Positions 1 through 8,041 of a DNA stretch of 8,041 nucleotides are shown here, piece by piece. The notes under the pieces are model-generated. The model was not told the origin of the DNA and did not search any database. It saw nothing but the letters and a program-made list of their open reading frames with translations. Each line of letters begins with the position of its first letter. Position 1 is the first letter of the stretch. A program made the position numbers and the translations under genes. Source of the stretch: a virus (Duplodnaviria; Heunggongvirae; Uroviricota; Caudoviricetes); IMG/VR virus record IMGVR_UViG_2737471861_000016. One strand, 5' to 3'.

Positions 1-149
1 TCCTTTCATGAAAATACGCAATATCAATCATCCAGCGCGTTAAAAGCTACGTAGCTCATCAAGAGTCTAAGCAGAAGTCTTTCCGTGTTAGCCAGAAGTG
101 GAAACAACGTGCAAAGCTTGCCCTTGCTGGTGAACAACGTCTTACAAAG

Positions 150-1151
150 ATGGTTCCCGGATGGATTGACCCCGATACTTTCAAGTGCAATGAACACGCT
201 GAGACTGTAAGACTGATTTTCAAGCTGCTGCTAGATGGTGAAAGTCTGCATAACATCGCCCGTCACCTACAGGCTAATAACATTAGTTCATTCTCACGGC
301 GTAAAGATGCTAATGGTTTTAGCGTTCATTCTGTGCGTACTATCTTAAGGTCAGAGACAACGAGAGGTACACTACCAGCATCACAGCGCAATGACCGCCC
401 CGCTATACCGAACTACTACGAAGCCGCTATAGATGCTGCAACGTTCAATAAGGCTCAAGAGATTCTCGACAAGAATCGTAAAGGCCGCACACCTGCAAGT
501 GATAACCCATTAACGATTAACATCTTCAAAGGTCTGTTTAGGTGTCAGTGTGGGGCTAGTGTCCATCCTACCGGAACAAAGAATAAGTATGCTGGGGTCT
601 ACAGGTGCAATAACCACTTAGACGGTCGCTGTGATGTTCCACCGTTGAAGCGTAAACCGTTTGATAAGTGGATGATTGATAATTTTCTGGGGATGATTGA
701 CGTGGGGAATGATGGAGAAGCAGAGGGGAAGATTGCATCTCTACAGCATGAGGTTGAAATTGTCACAACCAGAATCAAGAAAGCTACCGCCCTACTTCTT
801 GAGATGGATGATATTACAGAGTTGAAAACACAGGTGAAGGAACTGAACCAGAAGCGCACAGAACTACAGACCACGATTGATAGCATGAGGCGTAAAACTT
901 CACTCAGTGATAAGGGATTACCCCAACTTAAAGATATTGACCTTATGACTAAAGAGGGTCGTGTCGAGTGTCAGTTGATTTTGTCCAAGCATCTAAAAGG
1001 GCTTACATTGGGTAAGGATTCGGTAACTGTAACGCTACAGAACGACACTGAAATAACCATACCTACAGACCCGCTACCGCTAAATGATGGAACATCAATC
1101 TTTGAAATTGCTGAGAAAAATCTTTTGAATATTGACACTTTCCAACTGTAG
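150..1151 (+). CDS. Large serine recombinase, C-terminal portion (recombinase domain, zinc ribbon, coiled coil); catalytic domain not present in this ORF
   Basis: Translation matches the serine-recombinase 'recombinase' domain pattern (IDPD...ETVRLIFKLLLDGESLHNIARHL...FSVHSVRTILRSETTRG), followed by a Cys-rich zinc ribbon (FRCQCG...YRCNNHLDGRC) and a long coiled-coil stretch. No Shine-Dalgarno precedes the ATG at 150, and the in-frame upstream codons 12-149 encode a helix that looks like the end of the catalytic domain, so the ATG is probably an internal Met. Confidence 0.8.
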   Translation: MVPGWIDPDTFKCNEHAETVRLIFKLLLDGESLHNIARHLQANNISSFSRRKDANGFSVHSVRTILRSETTRGTLPASQRNDRPAIPNYYEAAIDAATFNKAQEILDKNRKGRTPASDNPLTINIFKGLFRCQCGASVHPTGTKNKYAGVYRCNNHLDGRCDVPPLKRKPFDKWMIDNFLGMIDVGNDGEAEGKIASLQHEVEIVTTRIKKATALLLEMDDITELKTQVKELNQKRTELQTTIDSMRRKTSLSDKGLPQLKDIDLMTKEGRVECQLILSKHLKGLTLGKDSVTVTLQNDTEITIPTDPLPLNDGTSIFEIAEKNLLNIDTFQL

Positions 1152-1159
1152 CAATCAAT

Positions 1160-1178
1160 CAGGGGGCTATGCCCCCCT
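1160..1178. terminator. Bidirectional intrinsic terminator candidate between convergent genes
   Basis: GGGGGC (1162-1167), loop TAT, GCCCCC (1171-1176), lying between the recombinase stop (1149-1151) and the stop of the minus-strand gene (1183-1185). The flanking T tracts are weak on both strands. Confidence 0.5.
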
Positions 1179-1182
1179 TCTA

Positions 1183-1971
1183 TCAATATCTCTTGTTCGG
1201 ATTCACTGAGTACTTTTTAAGCTTTGAAGCTACTCGACCAGCGTTACTGTTAGCATTGGTGACGTTGGTTTTTTCAGCTTCTGTTAAGTCTGAATAGTCC
1301 AGCTTCCAAGCCTTATTACATTTAATCTGAGCATCGAGAATATCATTTCTGATAGCTGGAGCGTAACCGGATACATCGTTAATACTCATTAGCTCTTTGC
1401 ACGATAGCATAGGCGCGTTATTGCGTTCAGTGGTCACGTTACCTGCATTCTTCTTACTGGTCACACCACCGTCATTTGTAGTAGCAGTCTTTCCAGTTGC
1501 AGCCGAAATATCAGTTTGTCCCACGACAGCTTTAAAGTTAATTTCCTGAAAAGTTAGCTGGATACGAAGACCGTTAGAGATAGTAACATCTTTAGAGGCT
1601 TTAAAGCTCGTAATAATGGAATCATCAATCTTGATACCGTCTTTACAGATAACTGAAATAATTTGCTTCTGGTCTCTCCAGCTCTCAAGAGTGTCAATGA
1701 AGTTTTCTACTAATTGACCCTGACGAGTTAATAATAAGCTCCCTTCATAGCCAACTACAACGACACCACTAATAGTGATTGTTCTGGGTGCTCTTTGCAC
1801 GTTATCTGTAACGGTTTGCCCTGATTGCATGTTCTGTGTAGTTACCTGCATAGGACTATCAAATTCCATGTTCTCAGTTGCTGATAAGGTTAAGAAGGCA
1901 TCTACATTATCTCTTAAGTGGAAATAGATGCCGTCTTTGCCACTGTAGCGGATTTGATTGCTAAAAATCAT
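1183..1971 (-). CDS. Hypothetical protein (262 aa) immediately downstream of the tape measure gene; possible tail component by position only
   Basis: ORF with an internal ATG at 1971-1969 preceded by AAGGAG at 6-nt spacing (minus strand AAAGGAGAATTTAATG). The track's upstream TTG at 1992 lacks an RBS. No motif recognised. Confidence 0.6.
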
Positions 1972-1988
1972 TAAATTCTCCTTTGATT

Positions 1989-2032
1989 TCAAAGGCTTAG
2001 TGTATTTTAATCATTTTTAACCAAGCCTTTGA
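1989..2032. promoter_or_regulatory. 10-bp perfect inverted repeat (TCAAAGGCTT / AAGCCTTTGA) with 24-bp spacer, just upstream of the RBS of the 262-aa gene
   Basis: Arms at 1989-1998 and 2023-2032 are exact reverse complements. No T tract follows on either strand, so this looks like an operator or RNA structure rather than a terminator. Confidence 0.45.
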
Positions 2033-2127
2033 TATATAAGTACTTTCTCTGTTAAGCGTGAGCTACGTAAATTCTATTTTTCAGTGCGGGTATTAACTTT
2101 GCTTTATTCACGTAGAACACCGTTAAA

Positions 2128-4308
2128 TCAATCATCTTCTGGGAATGATGAACTCAATAACGTAGCCTCTGCATATTGGTCATACAGACTGCTGTTAAAT
2201 GTCATAAAGCTGGTTTCATCTGGTTTAATAGCAACTTCACCACCAAGTGAAACTTTCACAGGCTCCTGAATACGTTTACTCAAAGCAGAGATTTCATCCC
2301 TCAGACTTTGAATATCTGCACTCGTTAATGCTGAATCTTGCTTAATATTGTTTAATTCTGGATGATTGAATCTTGCAATATTCATTGTGGCATTGTTAAA
2401 CAATTCACCCATTGAACTAAAAATTTTACTCCACCCCTCATTAATCATATTCGGTTTATTAGGGTCACCAGAATACACAGGATTAAAGTCACTACCCACA
2501 CCTACCCCAGATGGATGCATATTAGCGTTTTTGACTACTTCCTGATTCATAAAATCCAGTGCTTTCTTCAATGCATATAAACCAAGAGTGACACCTCTGA
2601 TTTGTGGAATCATTGAAGCTAATGCTAACGCTGTTTCATAACCGTCATCAGCATAACCAATTGCAAGAGCACTACCTACACCACCAGCTACACCTTTCAG
2701 TTTTCCACCACCTTTACCAGTAGCTACCTGACCAGCCACCTGATTAGCTCTTGTACCTAACGTTGTGATTGCTCTTGTCAGGTTCATAACCCCTGTAGTA
2801 GCACTGAATAGTGTCTTTGCAGATAACGCTATAGCAAGACCTTTGACGAAGTTGATAAAACCATCACCGACTTCATCAAGTAGTTTTCGTTTAGTGTCAT
2901 CAAGGCTGTAATAGAACTTCTTAGTCTGTAAAATCCAGCCTTCAAGGTGATTGTTAAAGATACGGATGTCATCTACACCAGCTTTAAGCATGTCGATAAG
3001 TCCACCGATAGCATCACCAGCGATAGAAGAACTCATCCCCATTTCACTAAGCAAGCTACTCATGCTGGATAAGAAGCCATTTAGCTCATCCTGTGAACCT
3101 GAGAAGATTTTCACCATCGTATCATCCCAGTTGTTTGCTAACTTACCTAAAGCTGTCTGTGTGCTCTTAGCGACTTCAGCCCAGCCACCCGCTTTATCAA
3201 TCATCAAGCCCATCTGTTTAGCGACTTTAGGGAGAGTATCAGCGGAAAGCACCTTCCCGTCTTTCATCGCTTTATCAAGCTCTGTAGCAGTCATACCCAA
3301 TGCTTCAGCGAATAGCTTAAATGCACCAGCCATACGGTCACCTAACTGACCACGAAGCTCTTCAGCCTGAATCTTGCCCTTAGAAGCCATCTGCTCAAAA
3401 GCTTTCAAAATGCCGTTTAGCTCATCGTTAGAAAGCCCCATTAAGCGACTCATAGCTGTTGCATTACCAAATAGTTGTTGTGTCTCATCCTGTGACATAG
3501 AACCCTGAGCACCTGCTGCAAACTTAGCGTAGCTTGATAGCCCTTCAGAGATATTAAGACCTGTCTTGTCTGCTAAATTTCGAATAAATACCTCAGCTTC
3601 AGATGCTTTATCACCAAGTACAAACTTAGCGGCTCTCTGTGCGGAATCTCGTTTAAGACCTGCATTCATGATGGCCTTGTAAGCGTTAAGAGCACCCATC
3701 ACAGAGTAAAATGCACCAGATAATTTAATCGCATTGCTTGCAAGATTATTAAATGCGTCGCTTGTATTGTTAATGCTGGTGGTCTTTGTCTGTGACCTGA
3801 GTTTATTCAACGTTTCACGAAGAGATTGATTTAATTTTGCAAGTTCAGCGTTAAACTTTTCACTTCCAATATTACCAGCCTTACCGCTTAAGCTGTAATA
3901 CTGTGCTTTAAACATTTTAGCCATCAGCGGATTAATATCACCAAGCTTAGACATATTCACGCTATGTGCCGCTGTGATTGCTCTGTTGCCGCTAATTCGT
4001 GGCTGTCTTGATTGTTTTGGAGGATTAACAGTGTCATTAAATCTGGTGGCAAACTGAAATACTTTTGTGTTTCTTGCTCTCTGTTCAATCTTGTCAAAGG
4101 TCTTATTAAACTTCCTTTCAAGTTGCCCTAAAGAACTTGTCAGATTGCTGTCAAGTTGCTTGGTATCGACCTTAAACGCTCTATTCAAATTACGTTCAAT
4201 TCTTTGTGCTGACTGCAAAGCTGCCTTTTCAACTCTTTGCAAGCCCTTAATAACGTTCTCGCTGAAGCCTAGCTCAACGATAAAACTATCAACTGTGAAT
4301 TTGCTCAT
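2128..4308 (-). CDS. Phage tail tape measure protein (726 aa)
   Basis: Contains the tape-measure signature KGKIQAEELRGQLGDRMAGAFKLFAEALGMTATELDKAMKDGKVLSADTLPKVAKQM, which resembles the lambda gpH segment ELNKALKDGKILQADYNTLM. It also has a Gly-rich hydrophobic region (GKGGGKLKGVAGGVGSALAIGY) and a long helical N-terminus. RBS AGAGGTGAAAC precedes the ATG. Confidence 0.85.
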   Translation of the reverse strand: MSKFTVDSFIVELGFSENVIKGLQRVEKAALQSAQRIERNLNRAFKVDTKQLDSNLTSSLGQLERKFNKTFDKIEQRARNTKVFQFATRFNDTVNPPKQSRQPRISGNRAITAAHSVNMSKLGDINPLMAKMFKAQYYSLSGKAGNIGSEKFNAELAKLNQSLRETLNKLRSQTKTTSINNTSDAFNNLASNAIKLSGAFYSVMGALNAYKAIMNAGLKRDSAQRAAKFVLGDKASEAEVFIRNLADKTGLNISEGLSSYAKFAAGAQGSMSQDETQQLFGNATAMSRLMGLSNDELNGILKAFEQMASKGKIQAEELRGQLGDRMAGAFKLFAEALGMTATELDKAMKDGKVLSADTLPKVAKQMGLMIDKAGGWAEVAKSTQTALGKLANNWDDTMVKIFSGSQDELNGFLSSMSSLLSEMGMSSSIAGDAIGGLIDMLKAGVDDIRIFNNHLEGWILQTKKFYYSLDDTKRKLLDEVGDGFINFVKGLAIALSAKTLFSATTGVMNLTRAITTLGTRANQVAGQVATGKGGGKLKGVAGGVGSALAIGYADDGYETALALASMIPQIRGVTLGLYALKKALDFMNQEVVKNANMHPSGVGVGSDFNPVYSGDPNKPNMINEGWSKIFSSMGELFNNATMNIARFNHPELNNIKQDSALTSADIQSLRDEISALSKRIQEPVKVSLGGEVAIKPDETSFMTFNSSLYDQYAEATLLSSSFPEDD

Positions 4309-4338
4309 TCATGTTTCACCTCTTAAGTGTTCATATAC

Positions 4339-4379
4339 GAAAAAGGGGAGGACCAACCAATTAAGGTTAATCTCTCCCC
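4339..4379 (-). terminator. Intrinsic terminator or attenuator candidate in the 93-bp gap directly upstream of the tape measure start
   Basis: On the minus-strand transcript: GGGGAG (pairs 4374-4379 with 4345-4350), an inner AACC/GGTT stem around AATTAA, then CTCCCC followed immediately by TTTTT. About 30 nt further on lies the tape measure RBS. Confidence 0.5.
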
Positions 4380-4401
4380 GTATTCACCCAACCAATCTTT
4401 T

Positions 4402-4611
4402 TTAATGCCTGACAAGATAATGTAGTTCCGTTTCACCTATAATTTGAGCATCGGAAGGGATACGGTCGATACACCACTTTGGAATCTTGCGTGTTTTTGG
4501 TTTGTGTGAGGTGATAACTTGACGTTTGTTTTTAATTCTTAAGGCTGGATTGGCTTGTAACTTTAAGTTTTCACAAACAGACCGAATAGTCTCTAAACGC
4601 TCTTCAAACAT
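4402..4611 (-). CDS. Hypothetical small basic protein (69 aa)
   Basis: ATG at 4611-4609 preceded by AAGAGGTGATTA, almost the same RBS as the tape measure gene. An in-frame stop lies just upstream, so it is not a frameshift extension of the 235-aa gene. Confidence 0.5.
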   Translation of the reverse strand: MFEERLETIRSVCENLKLQANPALRIKNKRQVITSHKPKTRKIPKWCIDRIPSDAQIIGETELHYLVRH

Positions 4612-4634
4612 TAATCACCTCTTTTAATTCATAG

Positions 4635-5342
4635 TTAAAGTGCCTTTGCATATTTCTGAGAAATCTTCGTAAGCTGCTCAATATCAGCCTGCATAGCAAC
4701 CTTCTTCTGCGACTCATATTCACTAACAAGGTCTTTCATAGCCTGAAGCTCTCTTGAGAGATACAACTTAACATTATCAAGTTGCTTGTTACGTGATGCC
4801 AAGATGTTCTGTCTGGCAAGTTCACAGAGTTCTTCATCGCTCTTATTAGTCATGTAAATAAACTGACCAGCACCTCTTGATGCCTTAACCATCTTCACAA
4901 TTCGGTGTCCATCAGGAAGATTATTAATCACGTCTGGGATATTCTCAGGAAAAGTACCAAAACCATCATTGTCTTCATATTGGTGATAAACAAATGGTTT
5001 CTGTGACAATTCATCCTGAATCTCAAATTCTGACGGTTCAATAGCTGATTGCATCAGGGTAACTTTGCTGTAAGCGTCATCTAATCTAAGACGCTGTGCT
5101 TTTAAAGCTGGGTAATATTTCTTTTCAAGCTCAAGCAATGCTTCAGTTTTGCAGATATCAGGCATTTCTTGAGGTTCAGGGGCCACAAAGGTGATTTCTT
5201 TTGGCGACCTCTTTAACTCTTGCTCAAACTTAATTCTTTCATCGTGCTCTTTGCGCTGAATAGCGATAGCTGGATGTTCAGTCTGTGGTGACCAGTCACC
5301 GAAGCTATCAATCTTTTTACCGTTAATATATAGATTTTCCAT
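4635..5342 (-). CDS. Hypothetical protein (235 aa) with a charged, probably coiled-coil C-terminal third
   Basis: ATG at 5342-5340 preceded by AAGAGGA at 7-nt spacing. C-terminal region (ELARQNILASRNKQLDNVKLYLSRELQAMKDLVSEYESQKK) is helix-like. No family recognised; it does not look like a beta-rich major tail protein. Confidence 0.6.
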   Translation of the reverse strand: MENLYINGKKIDSFGDWSPQTEHPAIAIQRKEHDERIKFEQELKRSPKEITFVAPEPQEMPDICKTEALLELEKKYYPALKAQRLRLDDAYSKVTLMQSAIEPSEFEIQDELSQKPFVYHQYEDNDGFGTFPENIPDVINNLPDGHRIVKMVKASRGAGQFIYMTNKSDEELCELARQNILASRNKQLDNVKLYLSRELQAMKDLVSEYESQKKVAMQADIEQLTKISQKYAKAL

Positions 5343-5351
5343 TTCATTTTC

Positions 5352-5413
5352 CTCTTCTAAGTATATTCAGTTTTTAAAAAGCACACCTGACAGCCTATCT
5401 AAACTTAGAAGAG
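5352..5413 (-). promoter_or_regulatory. 11-bp perfect inverted repeat whose downstream arm overlaps the Shine-Dalgarno of the 235-aa gene (possible RBS-sequestering hairpin)
   Basis: CTCTTCTAAGT (5352-5362) and ACTTAGAAGAG (5403-5413) are exact reverse complements. In the minus-strand mRNA the 3' arm ACUUAGAAGAG runs into the SD AAGAGGA. The 40-nt loop contains nested TCAG/CTGA and a TTTTTAAAAA palindrome. Confidence 0.45.
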
Positions 5414-5577
5414 ACTTAAAAGGCGGTTTGCCAAGTATGCTTTTTAAAAGCTGAAAAAAGCCCTAAACATAGGTGATTCGGATATTCATGGAATCATCCT
5501 TATCTGTGAAGGGCTTTGAAGGTTTGCTTATAACGTTAACGAAGTTTCAGGAAAAACTTTCTTTAAAAGTTCTGTTT

Positions 5578-5616
5578 GAAAACTCTTAAAGAAACGCCCT
5601 AACTCATGATTAGGGC
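5578..5616 (-). terminator. Intrinsic terminator or attenuator candidate inside the long leader
   Basis: Minus-strand transcript: GCCCTAA (5616-5610), loop TCATGAG, TTAGGGC (5602-5596), followed by GTTTCTTTAAGAGTTTTC. The plus-strand orientation has no U tract. Confidence 0.45.
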
Positions 5617-5763
5617 AAAGCTGTAAGGGTTCAATAATGAATGATTAAGCACTTTTTGAGATGACCTCTCAGACTAAACTGAAAGGCCATGACGAAAAGC
5701 ATTGCACCTTTCCAATCAGAATATAGTTATCATCGATGTAGAGACGATTAATAGTTTAATTCA

Positions 5764-5780
5764 GGAAGAGTTGCTCTTCC
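5764..5780. promoter_or_regulatory. Perfect 7-bp stem, 3-nt loop hairpin (GGAAGAG ttg CTCTTCC)
   Basis: Exact inverted repeat at 5764-5770 and 5774-5780. It lies just downstream (minus-strand sense) of the candidate promoter at 5789-5817. No U tract follows, so it is a 5' stem-loop or protein-binding site rather than a terminator. Confidence 0.4.
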
Positions 5781-5788
5781 CTATTACC

Positions 5789-5842
5789 ATCATCTCATGC
5801 TTAAGATTATTTGTCAACAGCTTTTTAACAGATTGGTAACAT
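5789..5842 (-). promoter_or_regulatory. Candidate minus-strand promoter and operator: TTGACA -35 with weak -10, plus three phased (C/T)AACA(G/T) repeats
   Basis: Minus-strand TTGACA (plus 5812-5817), 17-bp spacer, GATGAT (plus 5789-5794). The plus strand carries CAACAG 5815-5820, TAACAG 5826-5831 and TAACAT 5837-5842 at exact 11-bp spacing. The core TTGTCAACA is shared with the 7197-7205 promoter region. Confidence 0.4.
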
Positions 5843-5918
5843 TAATTCTTATTTACCGTGTTACCTACCCAGCAACCAACAAATAAACCCAAAGCTGTCC
5901 AAGCAATTATTAAGCCCA

Positions 5919-6242
5919 TTAATGCACCACCTTCGAATCCGTAACCAAAATATTGTCAGCGTACAAAATTTCTATAGCTGCCTTGAGATATTTTTCAGGG
6001 CTAACGCTGTATTTGTTCGTTTGCTCGATAACCAATCTTTTCATGTTGCTGTCTTTAATTGGTAGCATCATTCGAGGCTCGTTAAACTCCACCGACTGAA
6101 TAAAGTCAGAGATGTTTTCTGCATTATCAGCCATCAAAGCTAACAGCCGGTCAAAGTCAATGCTAATACCTGCATCAATGAAGCTTTGCACCATCATAGC
6201 GGTGTCGTTATCAACGAAAATCTGTAGCGGGTAATTGTTCAT
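5919..6242 (-). CDS. Hypothetical acidic protein (107 aa)
   Basis: ATG at 6242-6240 preceded by AGGAGA at 9-nt spacing. No recognisable motif. Confidence 0.6.
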   Translation of the reverse strand: MNNYPLQIFVDNDTAMMVQSFIDAGISIDFDRLLALMADNAENISDFIQSVEFNEPRMMLPIKDSNMKRLVIEQTNKYSVSPEKYLKAAIEILYADNILVTDSKVVH

Positions 6243-6412
6243 TTCTTAAAATCTCCTTTTTCACCAGACCTCCTCAATCGCTCTGTAACGAGCTAAACAG
6301 TCTTTTTCAGGGGTAGCCTGTAGGGGTGTACCACATACCCTAAAATAAGATAGTTTTTTGCGTTAGAATGCGATTGAGAGCGTCTGAGAGTGGGTAAACC
6401 CGTTTTTTGCCT

Positions 6413-6622
6413 TTAGTCTGAGACTATTAACCCCATCTCACTATGAAATTGACTAAACCAGCTTTTTGTTACTGAGGTTTTTAGTGTGAAAGATGGGGAT
6501 TGCATAATCAGATAGATGCCATCATTATCAATGTCACCCCATCCATTATGTACATCAATTAGATTTCGAAAATATTTAAAGGCTTTGTCTGTTTTAAGTT
6601 TGAGGGTGAATACTTTCTTCAT
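6413..6622 (-). CDS. Hypothetical protein (69 aa), translationally coupled to the upstream gene
   Basis: ATG at 6622-6620 overlaps the TGA of the upstream gene (ATGA overlap) and is preceded by GGGGGAAAGA. The track's TTG at 6634 is an unlikely start. Confidence 0.55.
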   Translation of the reverse strand: MKKVFTLKLKTDKAFKYFRNLIDVHNGWGDIDNDGIYLIMQSPSFTLKTSVTKSWFSQFHSEMGLIVSD

Positions 6623-6849
6623 TCTTTCCCCCAATTCTTAATGAGTTCACAGGCCCGTTTAAATTGAGTCGGGTCACTATAATCAAGCTCGATATCCAGT
6701 GACTTTAATTCATAGCGTAACTGCTCAATTTGATGTGGCTTTAGTCTTTTCTTGTTACGGTCAAGCGTAACATCTTCATATTCTTTTGAGCGGGTATCTT
6801 GCCTGATTAGATGTGATGCCAGTTTATAAAATTTGTACCTATAACACAT
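6619..6849 (-). CDS. Hypothetical basic protein (76 aa), translationally coupled to the RHH-like gene
   Basis: ATG at 6849-6847 overlaps the TAA of the upstream gene (TAATG) and is preceded by GGGGG. No family recognised. Confidence 0.55.
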   Translation of the reverse strand: MCYRYKFYKLASHLIRQDTRSKEYEDVTLDRNKKRLKPHQIEQLRYELKSLDIELDYSDPTQFKRACELIKNWGKE

Positions 6850-7139
6850 TAAACCCCCAGCTTATCCGCCAGTTGATGAACCTTAGCGCTTAACACCTGA
6901 ATCATTGAGCAACCTGTTACAGCGGACTGTGCTTTGAGTAGTTCCAGTTGGCCCGTTGTGATTCTGATGGCCTTAGAACCCTCTGCAACGCCCTTAACGT
7001 TATCAAAAGGGGTAAGGGCTACCGACTCTTTTAAAAGCTCTCCAACAAGCGCCGTGTGCTTCATATCGGGATATTTGGTTTTGATTGCTGCCAGTCGTTC
7101 AAATGCCTCTGGCAAAAGGCGCGTAACTGTGTGAGTCAT
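6849..7139 (-). CDS. Putative ribbon-helix-helix (CopG/Arc-like) DNA-binding regulator, possibly two tandem RHH-like units (96 aa)
   Basis: N-terminus HTVTRLLPEAFERLAAIKTKYPDMKHTALVGELLKESV fits the RHH pattern (beta strand, then LPEEL-type helix, then helix B). A second similar unit follows (KAIRITTGQLELLKAQSAVTGCSMIQVLSAKVHQL). Strong promoter and AAGGAG RBS upstream. Confidence 0.5.
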   Translation of the reverse strand: MTHTVTRLLPEAFERLAAIKTKYPDMKHTALVGELLKESVALTPFDNVKGVAEGSKAIRITTGQLELLKAQSAVTGCSMIQVLSAKVHQLADKLGV

Positions 7140-7174
7140 TGTAAAATCTCCTTAAATCTCTTACTCATACTACA

Positions 7175-7203
7175 ATCTTAACATTTATTTAACATATTGT
7201 CAA
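7175..7203 (-). promoter_or_regulatory. Sigma70-type promoter candidate for the RHH-led operon
   Basis: Minus-strand TTGACA (plus 7198-7203), 17-bp spacer, TAAGAT (plus 7175-7180). AAGGAG RBS sits 8 nt before the ATG at 7139. Confidence 0.6.
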
Positions 7204-7217
7204 CATCTCATTTACAT
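7179..7217. repeat. Four hexamer repeats (T/C)(A/T)ACAT phased at exactly 11 bp across the divergent promoter region (operator candidate)
   Basis: TAACAT 7179-7184, TAACAT 7190-7195, CAACAT 7201-7206, TTACAT 7212-7217. Confidence 0.55.
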
Positions 7218-7225
7218 GTTAATAT
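7197..7225 (+). promoter_or_regulatory. Sigma70-type promoter candidate for the small plus-strand ORF, back-to-back with the minus-strand promoter
   Basis: TTGTCA (7197-7202), 17-bp spacer, TAATAT (7220-7225) with an upstream TG (extended -10). Its -35 overlaps the minus-strand -35 by 5 bp. Confidence 0.5.
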
Positions 7226-7275
7226 GGTTATAGGGGCTGATACAGGTCATTCCCTTTGATAAATAAGGGGAATTA

Positions 7276-7461
7276 ATGGGCTTTCTTGAAACAATTGCTG
7301 AATCTCACAGATTCGCAAGCTTAGGTTGCTTTGTGTTTTTGGTGCTTCTGGTGTATCAGCTTTTAAAAATGATTATCGCCAAAAGTACACGATTCAATTT
7401 CAGCATTAAGTTTTTCAAATATGAAATCACAATTACGATTGATGATGGTAAAACAAACTAA
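7276..7461 (+). CDS. Small hydrophobic single-pass membrane peptide candidate (61 aa)
   Basis: ATG at 7276 preceded by AAGGGG at 5-nt spacing and by the plus-strand promoter. Contains one predicted transmembrane segment (LGCFVFLVLLVYQLLKMII). Its stop overlaps the stop of the convergent HNH/AP2-like gene. Confidence 0.4.
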   Translation: MGFLETIAESHRFASLGCFVFLVLLVYQLLKMIIAKSTRFNFSIKFFKYEITITIDDGKTN

Positions 7462-7751
7462 CGTTTTGTGATGATATTGGTGGCTCTCAGATTACCGGGG
7501 TCACCGTCTTTTAATCGTAGCTGGTGGACTGAATCCCAGATATCATAATGATACAGCACTGCAAACCTCAAAGCGTCAATCTTTAAATCTGTCACACCAT
7601 CGTAAAAGAAATAATAATCTCTCCCTTCCTTCTTCGGTCTAATCCGGTAAACTTCCCCGTGAGTATCCTTCATAAGATGACCTTCACGAGAAATGCGGTA
7701 ACGCTTTAACAGGCAATCTTTGTATCTCTTTTCACCGTGATATTCTTTCAT
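7458..7751 (-). CDS. HNH_3/AP2-like domain protein (97 aa); the canonical catalytic His position appears substituted
   Basis: Pattern YRISREGHLMK...ALRFAVLYHY...LRLKDGDPGNLRATNI resembles HNH_3/AP2-type domains (VHRLVAEAF...NHKDGNKTNNRxxNL). ATG at 7751-7749 is preceded by GGAGG at 9 nt and overlaps the upstream TAA (TAATG). The track's GTG at 7757 is too close to the RBS. Confidence 0.4.
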   Translation of the reverse strand: MKEYHGEKRYKDCLLKRYRISREGHLMKDTHGEVYRIRPKKEGRDYYFFYDGVTDLKIDALRFAVLYHYDIWDSVHQLRLKDGDPGNLRATNIITKR

Positions 7752-8041
7752 TAGCACATACCTCCACCAGCAAAATACATCTTCGGTTTAATTTTTTGCT
7801 TCTTGTCATCCTGAGTTTGTTTCTTTTTCGGTGTGAAAGAAAAGTCATCATCGTCACTGTCATCGAATGGGTCTAAACCCGATACTTTGTTCTTTTGTCT
7901 TGCAAGCTCGAATCTCTTTTTCTTCTCTACCCTCTTAATGGCTTTTTCACGTTCTGACTCTTCATCCTCTTCATCATCATCGAAGGGGTCCATCTCATCA
8001 TCAGTGGCGGGGCACTGTGTGCTGATGAATCCCCTAATGAT
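7751..8041 (-). CDS. Acidic/basic low-complexity protein with two DPFDD(D/S) repeats; 5' end probably outside the window
   Basis: The reading frame stays open to the window edge (...TDDEMDPFDDDEEDEESEREK...GLDPFDDSDDDDFSF...KKQKIKPKMYFAGGGMC). There is no convincing RBS before the ATG at 7993. It is translationally coupled to the downstream HNH/AP2-like gene. Confidence 0.5.
   Translation of the reverse strand: MIRGFISTQCPATDDEMDPFDDDEEDEESEREKAIKRVEKKKRFELARQKNKVSGLDPFDDSDDDDFSFTPKKKQTQDDKKQKIKPKMYFAGGGMC

What the first reader, a model, noticed from the sequence alone, without database searches (positions are those of the whole stretch)
4339..4401. Terminator-like hairpin placed about 30 nt before the tape measure start codon
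A GC-rich bipartite hairpin followed by UUUUU sits between the 69-aa gene and the tape measure gene, with no room for a separate promoter. If functional it would attenuate read-through into the tape measure and 262-aa genes, setting their dosage relative to upstream genes or making their expression depend on antitermination.
Basis: seen in the sequence. Interest (0 to 1): 0.45.

Follow-up and report, generated by a model that had tools for sequence, protein, structure and literature searches.

The report
Conserved terminator hairpin before tape-measure gene
The hairpin is real and looks like an ordinary factor-independent transcription terminator, kept in every relative examined, that sits between an E. 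coli chromosomal island's own genes and two tail genes related to those of Felix O1-like phages.

Summary
On the minus (coding) strand, 4379-4345 forms a 14-bp bulged hairpin. It is followed by UUUUU (4344-4340), 22 nt after the 69-aa gene's stop and 31 nt before the tape-measure (TMP) ATG. It is the best terminator candidate in the window, and 2 of 100 shuffles match its score.

The window is not a phage. It is a ~12-kb serine-recombinase island between tonB and yciI of E. coli OkiPb01716. Its TMP and tube-initiator genes are related to Felix O1-like phages, and homology to those phages stops at the TMP ribosome-binding site.

All 23 related loci found without using the hairpin carry it at the same place. 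About 100 further loci were found by hairpin pattern. T tracts are 5-8 nt. Upper-stem changes are compensatory, and G·U pairs make only the sense strand fold well. The 11-nt 5' arm never varies, although the genes on either side diverge and reassort.

Felix-like phages have an analogous, annotated terminator ahead of their chaperone-TMP genes.

Best reading: a leaky intrinsic terminator limiting read-through into TMP and tube-initiator genes. Termination efficiency, dosage control and antitermination are all untested. As a finding it is ordinary; the island around it is more interesting.

The parts
4345..4379 (-). Terminator hairpin: 6-bp GC-rich lower stem, bulged A, 8-bp upper stem with two G·U pairs, 6-nt loop.
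   Evidence: fold, z = -5.8; top terminator score in the window; conservation and covariation.
4335..4344 (-). U tract UUUUU (4344-4340) followed by the U-rich distal part CGUAU.
   Evidence: In 120 family loci the T tract is 5 (6 loci), 6 (105), 7 (8) or 8 (1) nt long. In the 39-locus subset it is always followed by GTAT or CGTA.
4386..4396 (-). Motif ATTGGTTGGGT just after the 69-aa gene's stop. It is present in many relatives but not all, and is partly repeated in the 3' arm of this window's hairpin (4362-4354).
   Evidence: Function unknown. It does not form a conserved antiterminator pairing.
4402..4611 (-). 69-aa gene (p69), the last gene before the terminator. The predicted protein has an N-terminal helix, a basic linker and a small beta domain.
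   Evidence: The family is confined to Enterobacteriaceae and every member is named 'hypothetical'. Model pLDDT 79, no significant fold match.
4635..5342 (-). 235-aa gene of unknown function, island-specific and sometimes auto-annotated 'transposase'.
4317..4322 (-). Shine-Dalgarno GAGGUG of the TMP gene. DNA homology to Felix O1-like phages begins here.
   Evidence: The alignments to phages end at window ~4317-4324.
2128..4308 (-). Tape measure protein gene, 726 aa.
   Evidence: Pfam PF20155 and phrog_4036. It is 33% identical to the phage garuso TMP, with the first ~45 residues and the central domain best conserved.
1183..1971 (-). 262-aa tube-initiator (Dit-like) gene, the last gene of the unit.
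   Evidence: PF21821 and phrog_3721, E = 5e-130. It is 75% identical to garuso_119, almost entirely so over the first ~185 residues. The gene after the TMP in Bas63 is gp18, the tube initiator (PMC12609058).
5789..5817 (-). Likely promoter of the unit: TTGACA, 17 nt, GATGAT with an upstream TG.
   Evidence: The -35 hexamer and 30 nt upstream of it are invariant in 11 of 11 aligned loci, and most relatives have CATAAT as the -10.
5343..5785 (-). About 440 nt of highly structured, partly conserved 5' leader with several hairpins followed by U runs.
   Evidence: dG -138 kcal/mol, z = -8.2; alignment; no Rfam family.

Best explanation
The hairpin plus U tract is a Rho-independent (intrinsic) terminator on the coding strand. 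RNA polymerase probably starts at the conserved promoter near 5800 and transcribes the leader, the 235-aa gene and the 69-aa gene. Once past the hairpin it pauses on the U tract, and the hairpin releases most transcripts at about 4340-4344. The fraction that reads through carries the TMP ribosome-binding site 17 nt downstream and is the only visible source of TMP and tube-initiator mRNA in this window. The element would therefore act as a leaky terminator (attenuator). It would keep the two phage-derived tail genes at a low level relative to the island's own genes, and give the upstream mRNA a protective 3' hairpin. Shown: the structure, its strand specificity, its position, its conservation and covariation, and the lack of a detectable promoter after it. 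Inferred: that it terminates at all, that it is leaky, and that read-through supplies the TMP. A secondary, passive role is also inferred: because its sequence is so conserved, it serves as the crossover point at which 69-aa-gene and TMP modules are reshuffled between islands.
For: Anatomy. It is the top terminator candidate on either strand of the window, matched in only 2 of 100 shuffles. Its energy per nucleotide (-0.64) and T-tract score (4.04) are close to the values I obtained for lambda tR2 (-0.63, 4.06) and the trpA terminator (-0.64, 4.70). Conservation: 23 of 23 loci ascertained by BLAST or protein search, not by the hairpin, have it between the small gene and the TMP. Among hairpin-pattern hits, 11 of 12 IMG/VR contigs and 94 of 122 metagenome matches lie next to p69 or TMP homologues. 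Every one of 120 family loci keeps 5-8 T. Covariation: stem position 11 is A-U, U-G or G-U, and position 13 is C-G, G-C, U-A or U-G. Some variants add 3-4 extra pairs, and all 18 distinct variants keep 14-17 pairs. Strand: mean dG is -22.6 kcal/mol for the sense strand and -12.7 for the antisense, because of 1-4 G·U pairs. No sigma-70-like site follows it. In three relatives the T tract is 4 nt from the ribosome-binding site. Precedent: Felix O1-like phages carry a similar hairpin, AAGGGGGAGAC-TTTAAAA-GGTCTTCCCC followed by T6, between the tube gene and the chaperone-TMP genes. It is conserved in 255 records and annotated 'terminator' in wV8, AYO145A and Mordin.
Against: There is no transcript or termination data of any kind. 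The window's U tract has only five U before a C, the shortest class in the family (6 of 120 loci), so efficiency could be modest. The 11-nt 5' arm GGGAGAGATTA is identical in 22 of 22 loci while flanking coding sequence diverges. That is more conservation than pairing alone requires, and hints at sequence-specific recognition or frequent recombination. In 46 of 120 relatives an inverted-repeat module of unknown function lies between the terminator and the TMP. It could supply an unconventional promoter, which would make read-through unnecessary in those islands.
Confidence: 0.65

Rival explanations
1. Gate for conditional expression. The terminator is efficient, and the TMP and tube-initiator genes stay silent until polymerase becomes termination-resistant. 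This could happen on infection by a Felix O1-like phage, or through an RNA or protein antiterminator acting from the long leader. The island's tail genes would then be expressed only when a phage tail is being built.
For: A near-consensus, invariant promoter is followed by a 440-nt highly structured leader with several hairpin plus U-run elements, and then by this internal terminator. This layout recalls lambda pR'-tR' with Q (my own knowledge). The phage relatives have a look-alike terminator ahead of their own TMP module, so anything that lets the phage read its own site might also act here. No promoter is detected after the hairpin.
Against: No antiterminator was identified. The island proteins match no family. 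The 69-aa basic protein has no fold match. No Rfam element was found. No conserved alternative (antiterminator) pairing involves the 5' arm. I know of no reported antitermination in Felix O1-like phages (own knowledge). The resemblance to the phage hairpin is limited to a GC-rich stem base plus T tract, which terminators share by convergence.
Confidence: 0.2
2. RNA stability or processing element rather than a terminator. The hairpin would mainly protect the 3' end of the upstream mRNA, or the 5' end of a processed TMP mRNA, from nucleases, with little effect on polymerase.
For: The hairpin is stable and conserved. Such 3' hairpins do stabilise mRNAs (own knowledge).
Against: The U tract immediately after the stem is kept at 5-8 nt in 120 of 120 loci. 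This is needed for termination but not for protection. A stabilising role is in any case a by-product of termination, not an alternative to it.
Confidence: 0.08
3. DNA-level site. The conserved palindrome would be a protein-binding or recombination site, for example for the island's recombinases, or a packaging or replication signal. It might also be merely a conserved 'linker' kept by recombination between modules.
For: The 5' arm is invariant. BLAST alignments between islands break just before and just after the hairpin. Similarity of the 69-aa gene and of the TMP to the window are uncorrelated across 116 loci (Spearman -0.15, p = 0.11).
Against: The two arms are not a DNA palindrome: the G·U pairs become A·C mismatches on the other strand. 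Upper-stem sequences differ between variants while pairing is kept. The T tract lies on one side only.
Confidence: 0.05
4. Chance hairpin with no function.
For: 2 of 100 shuffles of the window give an equally good site somewhere.
Against: It is present at the same position in every relative examined, despite 43-100% identity of the 69-aa protein and 46-100% identity of the TMP N-terminus to the window's copies.
Confidence: 0.01

Closest known systems
Rho-independent (intrinsic) terminators of E. coli and its phages, such as lambda tR2 and the trp operon terminator
   Same: A stem with a GC-rich base directly followed by a U tract, downstream of a stop codon and on the coding strand. Energy per nucleotide and T-tract score are comparable (components).
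   Different: The stem is longer than usual (14-17 bp), with an AU/GU-rich upper half and, in this window, a bulged A. It lies inside an apparent transcription unit, directly ahead of a ribosome-binding site, rather than at its end.
Terminator between the tail tube gene and the TMP-chaperone genes of Felix O1-like phages, annotated 'terminator' in wV8 EU877232, AYO145A KR014248 and Mordin NC_041977
   Same: Both are hairpin plus T6 elements placed just ahead of the module that contains the TMP and tube-initiator genes. The stem bases are similar: GGGGGAGAC/GTCTTCCCC in the phage against GGGGAGAG/CTCCCC here and GGGGAGAGA/GTCTTTCCC in relative L015.
   Different: The phage hairpin is shorter (13 bp, loop of 4). 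It follows the tube gene and is followed by two chaperone genes that the island lacks. Common descent cannot be shown from so short a sequence.
Partial terminators inside phage late transcription units, such as T7 T-phi after gene 10 (own knowledge)
   Same: The proposed logic is the same: a leaky internal terminator lowers expression of downstream genes needed in few copies.
   Different: Here the upstream genes are not abundant structural proteins, and leakiness has not been measured.
Lambda-type processive antitermination (pR'-tR'-Q, or HK022 put RNA; own knowledge)
   Same: A strong conserved promoter, a structured leader with terminator-like hairpins, and a further internal terminator.
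   Different: No Q-, N- or put-like component was detected. This is an analogy only.

Membership tests
Intrinsic (Rho-independent) terminator | Stable stem-loop with a GC-rich base in the RNA of the transcribed strand | tested here: met
   14 bp, lower stem GGGGAG/CUCCCC, -25.2 kcal/mol, z = -5.8. The sense strand folds about 10 kcal/mol better than the antisense strand across 18 variants.
Intrinsic (Rho-independent) terminator | U-rich tract starting within 0-2 nt of the stem | tested here: met
   UUUUUCGUAU starts directly after the stem. The T tract is 5-8 nt in 120 of 120 family loci.
Intrinsic (Rho-independent) terminator | Located downstream of a stop codon, co-directional with the upstream gene, in non-coding sequence | tested here: met
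   It lies 22 nt after the TAA of the 69-aa gene (11-76 nt in relatives). An in-frame stop precedes the TMP ATG.
Intrinsic (Rho-independent) terminator | Structure maintained in evolution (covariation) | tested here: met
   Two stem positions show double compensatory changes, several show wobble changes, and some variants add extra pairs. The evidence is moderate because the lower stem never varies.
Intrinsic (Rho-independent) terminator | Transcripts actually end in the U tract | not testable with these tools
   No RNA data are available. Term-seq, 3' RACE or in vitro transcription is needed.
Attenuator with mutually exclusive terminator and antiterminator hairpins (trp, bgl/RAT type) | Conserved upstream segment able to pair with the 5' arm of the terminator | tested here: not met
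   I folded the 110 nt upstream plus the 5' arm in 10 diverse loci. No common alternative helix appears, only a 5-bp AAUCU/AGAUU pairing in some.
Processive antitermination system (lambda N/Q, put RNA) | Recognisable antiterminator protein or RNA element in the unit | tested here: inconclusive
   There is no Pfam, PHROG, NCBIfam, PADLOC or Rfam match for island genes or the leader. The 69-aa protein has no fold match. Absence of a match does not exclude a new factor.
Programmed -1 frameshift of tail chaperones (G/GT) with a stimulatory hairpin | Slippery heptamer in frame before the stop, and a long alternative-frame extension towards the TMP | tested here: not met
   The A run lies after the TAA stop. 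The alternative frames end after 12 and 27 codons (read). The A run and spacer are not conserved in relatives. The 69-aa protein has no phage homologue.
Dispersed repeat or mobile hairpin element (REP-like) | Many copies in different genomic contexts | tested here: not met
   Each island has one copy. 94 of 122 metagenome pattern matches lie next to p69 or TMP homologues. The other 28 are unrelated hairpins that differ in stem and loop outside the fixed pattern, in other contexts.

The most novel reading that the evidence does not exclude
The hairpin is one checkpoint of a phage-responsive antitermination circuit in an undescribed family of Enterobacteriaceae islands. The elements are satellite- or defence-like. 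They carry highly variable copies of the tape-measure and tube-initiator genes of Felix O1-like myoviruses, but no other tail genes. The island's terminator would imitate the phage's own terminator ahead of its TMP module. The island's variant tail-core proteins would then be made only when an infecting phage reads through such sites, and would be built into, or would poison, the phage's tails.
Probability: 0.1. Interest if true: 0.7.

Novelty: new member of a known kind. Interest (0 to 1): 0.3.

Why it matters
As a terminator the element is ordinary. Its value is as a landmark. It is the most conserved non-coding feature examined in an island family present in roughly 9% of complete E. coli genomes. 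It sits exactly at the junction between island-specific genes and two tail-core genes related to those of virulent Felix O1-like phages. If these islands parasitise or sabotage such phages, this terminator is the obvious place where expression of the borrowed tail genes is set. It is also an easy handle: delete it or swap it, then measure TMP levels and phage yield. Finally, it gives a simple sequence signature for finding these islands in genomes and metagenomes.

Tried and rejected
1. Rfam search of the whole window: nothing at the hairpin.
2. A sigma-70 promoter overlapping or following the hairpin: none in the window and none in a relative carrying the 70-nt insert. By eye, TTGGTT-17-TATATG lacks the invariant final T, and its -35 part is not conserved in other hairpin variants.
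3. An antiterminator alternative structure: none is conserved. The upstream ATTGGTTGG repeat could pair with this window's 5' arm, but not with the other upper-stem variants, and the motif is missing in several loci.
4. A G/GT-type frameshift with the hairpin as stimulator: rejected by reading the frames.
5. The 69-aa basic protein as an N-like RNA binder: the family is confined to Enterobacteriaceae. The model has an N-terminal helix, a basic linker and a small beta domain. There is no significant PDB fold or sequence match. This stays pure speculation.
6. The 235-aa protein: no family, no phage homologue, no useful PDB match.
7. Literature searches for this island, or for a satellite carrying a TMP: nothing relevant.
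8. A genome-contig search with the 69-aa protein returned one locus only, in E. albertii.
9. The MAFFT alignment of the hairpins (A1) was not structurally coherent. I therefore counted covariation in Python, anchored on the invariant 5' arm, instead of using count of structure pairs.
10. One search printed d-scores with the wrong sign on the energy term.
11. The inverted-repeat module as a phage-derived promoter: it is absent from 50,697 phage records and from the garuso structural region. Its function is left open.

Full report
**What is at the coordinates**

All genes in this part of the window run on the minus strand. The order on that strand is:
- the 69-aa gene, 4611-4402, with stop TAA at 4404-4402;
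- a 93-nt spacer;
- the 726-aa tape measure (TMP) gene, starting at ATG 4308-4306, with an in-frame TGA directly before it.

The spacer holds these elements:
- GGGGAG (4379-4374), a bulged A (4373) and GAUUAACC (4372-4365);
- the loop UUAAUU (4364-4359);
- GGUUGGUC (4358-4351) and CUCCCC (4350-4345);
- UUUUU (4344-4340), then CGUAU;
- 17 nt after the T tract, the Shine-Dalgarno GAGGUG (4322-4317).

The 51-nt segment folds at -25.2 kcal/mol, z = -5.8, and none of 200 shuffles folds as well. 'Bipartite' corresponds to a GC-rich lower stem and an AU/GU-rich upper stem separated by one bulged base.

**Is it more than chance?**

The built-in terminator scan did not list the site. This is apparently because it does not allow bulges, since it does call the unbulged homologue in L157 (15 pairs, TTTTTTGTAT).

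I scanned both strands of the whole window with a score of the d'Aubenton-Carafa type. The formula is recalled from memory and uses ViennaRNA energies, so it is only a relative yardstick. The hairpin is the best site, d = 18.0. The only other site above zero is on the plus strand at 1238-1268, downstream of the recombinase gene. In 100 dinucleotide-preserving shuffles of the window, 2 produced a site this good anywhere on either strand.

Its energy per nucleotide (-0.64) and T-tract score (4.04) are close to what I obtained for lambda tR2 and the trp terminator.

**Where the window comes from**

The window is identical to E. coli OkiPb01716 chromosome 2190436-2198437. It lies in an island between tonB and yciI. 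The island contains, in order:
- a large serine recombinase gene, split here by an IS21-family element;
- the 262-aa 'baseplate protein' gene;
- the TMP gene;
- the 69-aa gene;
- the 235-aa gene;
- several small ORFs;
- a 325-aa helix-turn-helix protein gene;
- a Dam-type methyltransferase gene;
- a small serine recombinase gene.

Related sequence occurs in 453-496 of 5,426 complete E. coli genomes, always on chromosomes. The exact 69-aa protein is on at least 1,000 contigs, with names from E. coli and Salmonella. Relatives of it also occur in Shigella, Citrobacter, Kluyvera and E. albertii.

Only two genes resemble phage genes:
- The TMP matches PF20155 and phrog_4036. It is 33% identical to the TMP of the Felix O1-like phage garuso, with the N-terminus and central domain best conserved.
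- The 262-aa protein matches PF21821 and phrog_3721. It is 75% identical to garuso_119 and almost identical over the first ~185 residues.

In the Felix O1-like phage Bas63, the gene after the TMP is gp18, the tube initiator (PMC12609058).

DNA homology to more than 200 Felix O1-like phages stops at window ~4317-4324, which is the TMP ribosome-binding site. In those phages two chaperone genes abut the TMP gene with no spacer. The island has no chaperone genes. The 235-aa and 69-aa proteins have no match in 50,697 phage records, nor in Pfam, PHROGs, NCBIfam or PADLOC. The hairpin therefore sits at the seam between island-specific and phage-derived DNA.

**Comparative evidence**

I fetched 22 E. 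coli loci spread across the identity range of a BLAST search with the 361-nt region, plus one E. albertii locus found with the 69-aa protein. None was chosen for having the hairpin.

All 23 have a hairpin plus T tract between the small gene and the TMP. This includes loci whose 69-aa gene is only about 70% identical at the DNA level.

A degenerate hairpin pattern then retrieved further sets:
- 12 IMG/VR contigs, of which 11 are the same gene arrangement;
- 122 metagenome matches, of which 94 lie next to homologues of the 69-aa protein or the TMP; the other 28 are unrelated hairpins in other contexts.

Presence of the hairpin in these sets is circular, because they were found by it. The context is not.

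Over 120 family loci:

| Feature | Value |
|---|---|
| T tract 5 / 6 / 7 / 8 nt | 6 / 105 / 8 / 1 loci |
| Stop codon to hairpin | 11-76 nt |
| T tract to TMP ATG | 18-142 nt (35 nt or less in 39 loci) |
| Distinct hairpin sequences | 37 |
| 69-aa protein identity to the window | 43-100% |
| TMP N-terminus identity to the window | 46-100% |

**Evidence that it is an RNA structure on this strand**

The 18 distinct variants from the first 31 loci all fold into 14-17 pairs. The mean is -22.6 kcal/mol on the sense strand and -12.7 on the antisense strand, because each has 1-4 G·U pairs.

Anchoring on the 5' arm shows the following:
- position 11 is A-U, U-G or G-U;
- position 13 is C-G, G-C, U-A or U-G;
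- several positions toggle between G-C and G·U or between U-G and U-A;
- one class extends the stem by 3-4 pairs and has a 4-nt loop.

More upper-stem classes appear in metagenomes. The lower stem never varies, so the covariation evidence is moderate rather than strong.

The 11-nt 5' arm GGGAGAGATTA is identical in 22 of 22 loci, while flanking coding DNA differs widely. That is more conservation than pairing needs. I have no tested explanation for it. Frequent recombination through this segment is one possibility, and sequence-specific recognition is another.

**A module boundary**

BLAST alignments between islands tend to break just before the hairpin, just after the T tract, or at the ribosome-binding site. 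Across 116 loci, similarity of the 69-aa protein and of the TMP N-terminus to the window's copies are uncorrelated (Spearman -0.15, p = 0.11). There are pairs at 100%/52% and at 43%/97%. The two sides are therefore reassorted, and the conserved hairpin region is where they join.

**What lies between the terminator and the TMP**

In this window there are 17 nt, with no promoter-like site. In L014, L031 and L156 the T tract is 4 nt from the ribosome-binding site.

Other relatives carry inserts:
- a small GGATAG...CTATCC hairpin, in 41 of 120 loci;
- a ~70-nt inverted-repeat module (CTACGTGAA, about 33 nt, TTTACGTAG), in 46 of 120 loci.

In this window that module sits between the TMP and the tube-initiator gene instead (2063-2115). 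It is absent from the phage collection. No sigma-70-like promoter is detected in it. Its function is open.

**Upstream context**

An alignment of 11 loci shows an invariant TTGACA with 30 invariant bases before it, and an extended -10 element. In this window these lie at 5817-5789, with GATGAT as the -10 where most relatives have CATAAT.

A leader of about 440 nt follows. It folds at -138 kcal/mol, z = -8.2, and contains several hairpins followed by U runs. It matches no Rfam family.

The likely unit is therefore: promoter, leader, 235-aa gene, 69-aa gene, terminator, TMP gene, tube-initiator gene.

**Mechanism**

The best-supported reading is an intrinsic terminator that ends most transcripts after the 69-aa gene and lets a fraction continue into the TMP and tube-initiator genes.

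It matches a precedent in the phage relatives. A hairpin plus T6 lies between the tube gene and the chaperone-TMP genes. It is conserved in 255 phage records and annotated 'terminator' in three of them. Its stem base looks similar (GGGGGAGAC/GTCTTCCCC). The similarity is too short to prove common descent.

The main rival is a tight gate opened by antitermination, perhaps on phage infection. The promoter-leader-terminator layout is suggestive, but I found no antiterminator:
- no conserved alternative pairing;
- no family match for any island protein;
- no significant fold match for the basic 69-aa protein.

I also considered a role purely in RNA stability, a DNA-level site, a frameshift stimulator and chance. 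These are unlikely, for the reasons given under rivals and membership tests.

**Verdict**

The functional consequences (efficiency, dosage, dependence on antitermination) are untested and cannot be settled from sequence. As a finding it is a new example of a very familiar kind of element, so its interest is low to moderate.

The surrounding island is the more unusual thing seen here. It is a widespread element carrying only the tape-measure and tube-initiator genes of a virulent myovirus lineage, with the TMP highly variable between copies. I found no description of it in the searchable literature.

Noticed in passing
window 1-8041; L002 9023-22814: The window is part of a ~12-kb island between tonB and yciI (about 14 kb here with an IS21-family insertion). 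It carries serine recombinases, a Dam-type methyltransferase and a helix-turn-helix protein. Its only phage-like genes are a tape measure protein and a tube initiator related to Felix O1-like myoviruses. There are no chaperone, tube, sheath or capsid genes. Related islands occur in about 9% of complete E. coli genomes. I found no paper describing them. They could be satellites or tail-sabotaging defence elements.
   Followed up: partly
window 1183-1971 and 2128-4308 (minus strand): The tube-initiator homologue is almost identical to Felix-like phages over its first ~185 residues, the tube-like domain, but diverges over the last ~80. The TMP keeps its first ~45 residues and central domain but is 33% identical overall. 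TMPs of other islands are 38-95% identical to this one. One TMP class has no phage relative above about 34% identity.
   Followed up: partly
window 5343-5817 (minus strand): An invariant sigma-70-type promoter (TTGACA, 17 nt, GATGAT or CATAAT, with TG) is followed by a ~440-nt leader. The leader folds far better than shuffles (z = -8.2) and holds several hairpins followed by U runs plus a 27-nt-arm inverted repeat (5366-5392 / 5429-5455). It matches no Rfam family. It may be a regulatory RNA or a series of promoter-proximal terminators.
   Followed up: partly
window 2063-2115 (minus strand); also L024, L027, L028, L030 (two copies each): A ~70-nt inverted-repeat module (CTACGTGAA, about 33 nt, TTTACGTAG, then CACGCTTAA(C)AGAG) precedes the tube-initiator gene here. 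In relatives it precedes the TMP gene, the tube-initiator gene or both. It is absent from 50,697 phage records. Its function is unknown.
   Followed up: partly
window 5842-5919 (minus strand): A tiny conserved ORF overlaps the stop of the 107-aa gene (TAATG). It encodes a hydrophobic 25-residue peptide, MGLIIAWTALGLFVGCWVGNTVNKN, and is conserved across 10 aligned relatives.
   Followed up: no
window 1160-1176 and 1238-1268: A GC-rich hairpin (GGGGGGCATAGCCCCCT) without a good T tract lies between the convergent tube-initiator and recombinase genes. The only other terminator-like site in the window (plus strand, d = 7.3) lies downstream of the recombinase gene, inside the tube-initiator gene on the opposite strand.
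   Followed up: no
window 4386-4396 and 4354-4362 (minus strand): ATTGGTTGG occurs twice: once just after the stop of the 69-aa gene and once as the 3' arm of this window's upper stem. The upstream copy is common in relatives whose upper stems differ, so the repeat does not form a conserved alternative structure.
   Followed up: yes
window 4402-4611 (minus strand): The 69-aa protein is predicted (pLDDT 79) to have an N-terminal helix, a conserved lysine- and arginine-rich disordered linker, and a small beta-alpha-beta-beta domain. It has no significant fold match and is confined to Enterobacteriaceae.
   Followed up: yes
L002 9023-13132: In this strain the island's large serine recombinase gene is split by an IS21-family element (ISEc12 istA/istB), so this copy of the island may be unable to excise.
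   Followed up: no
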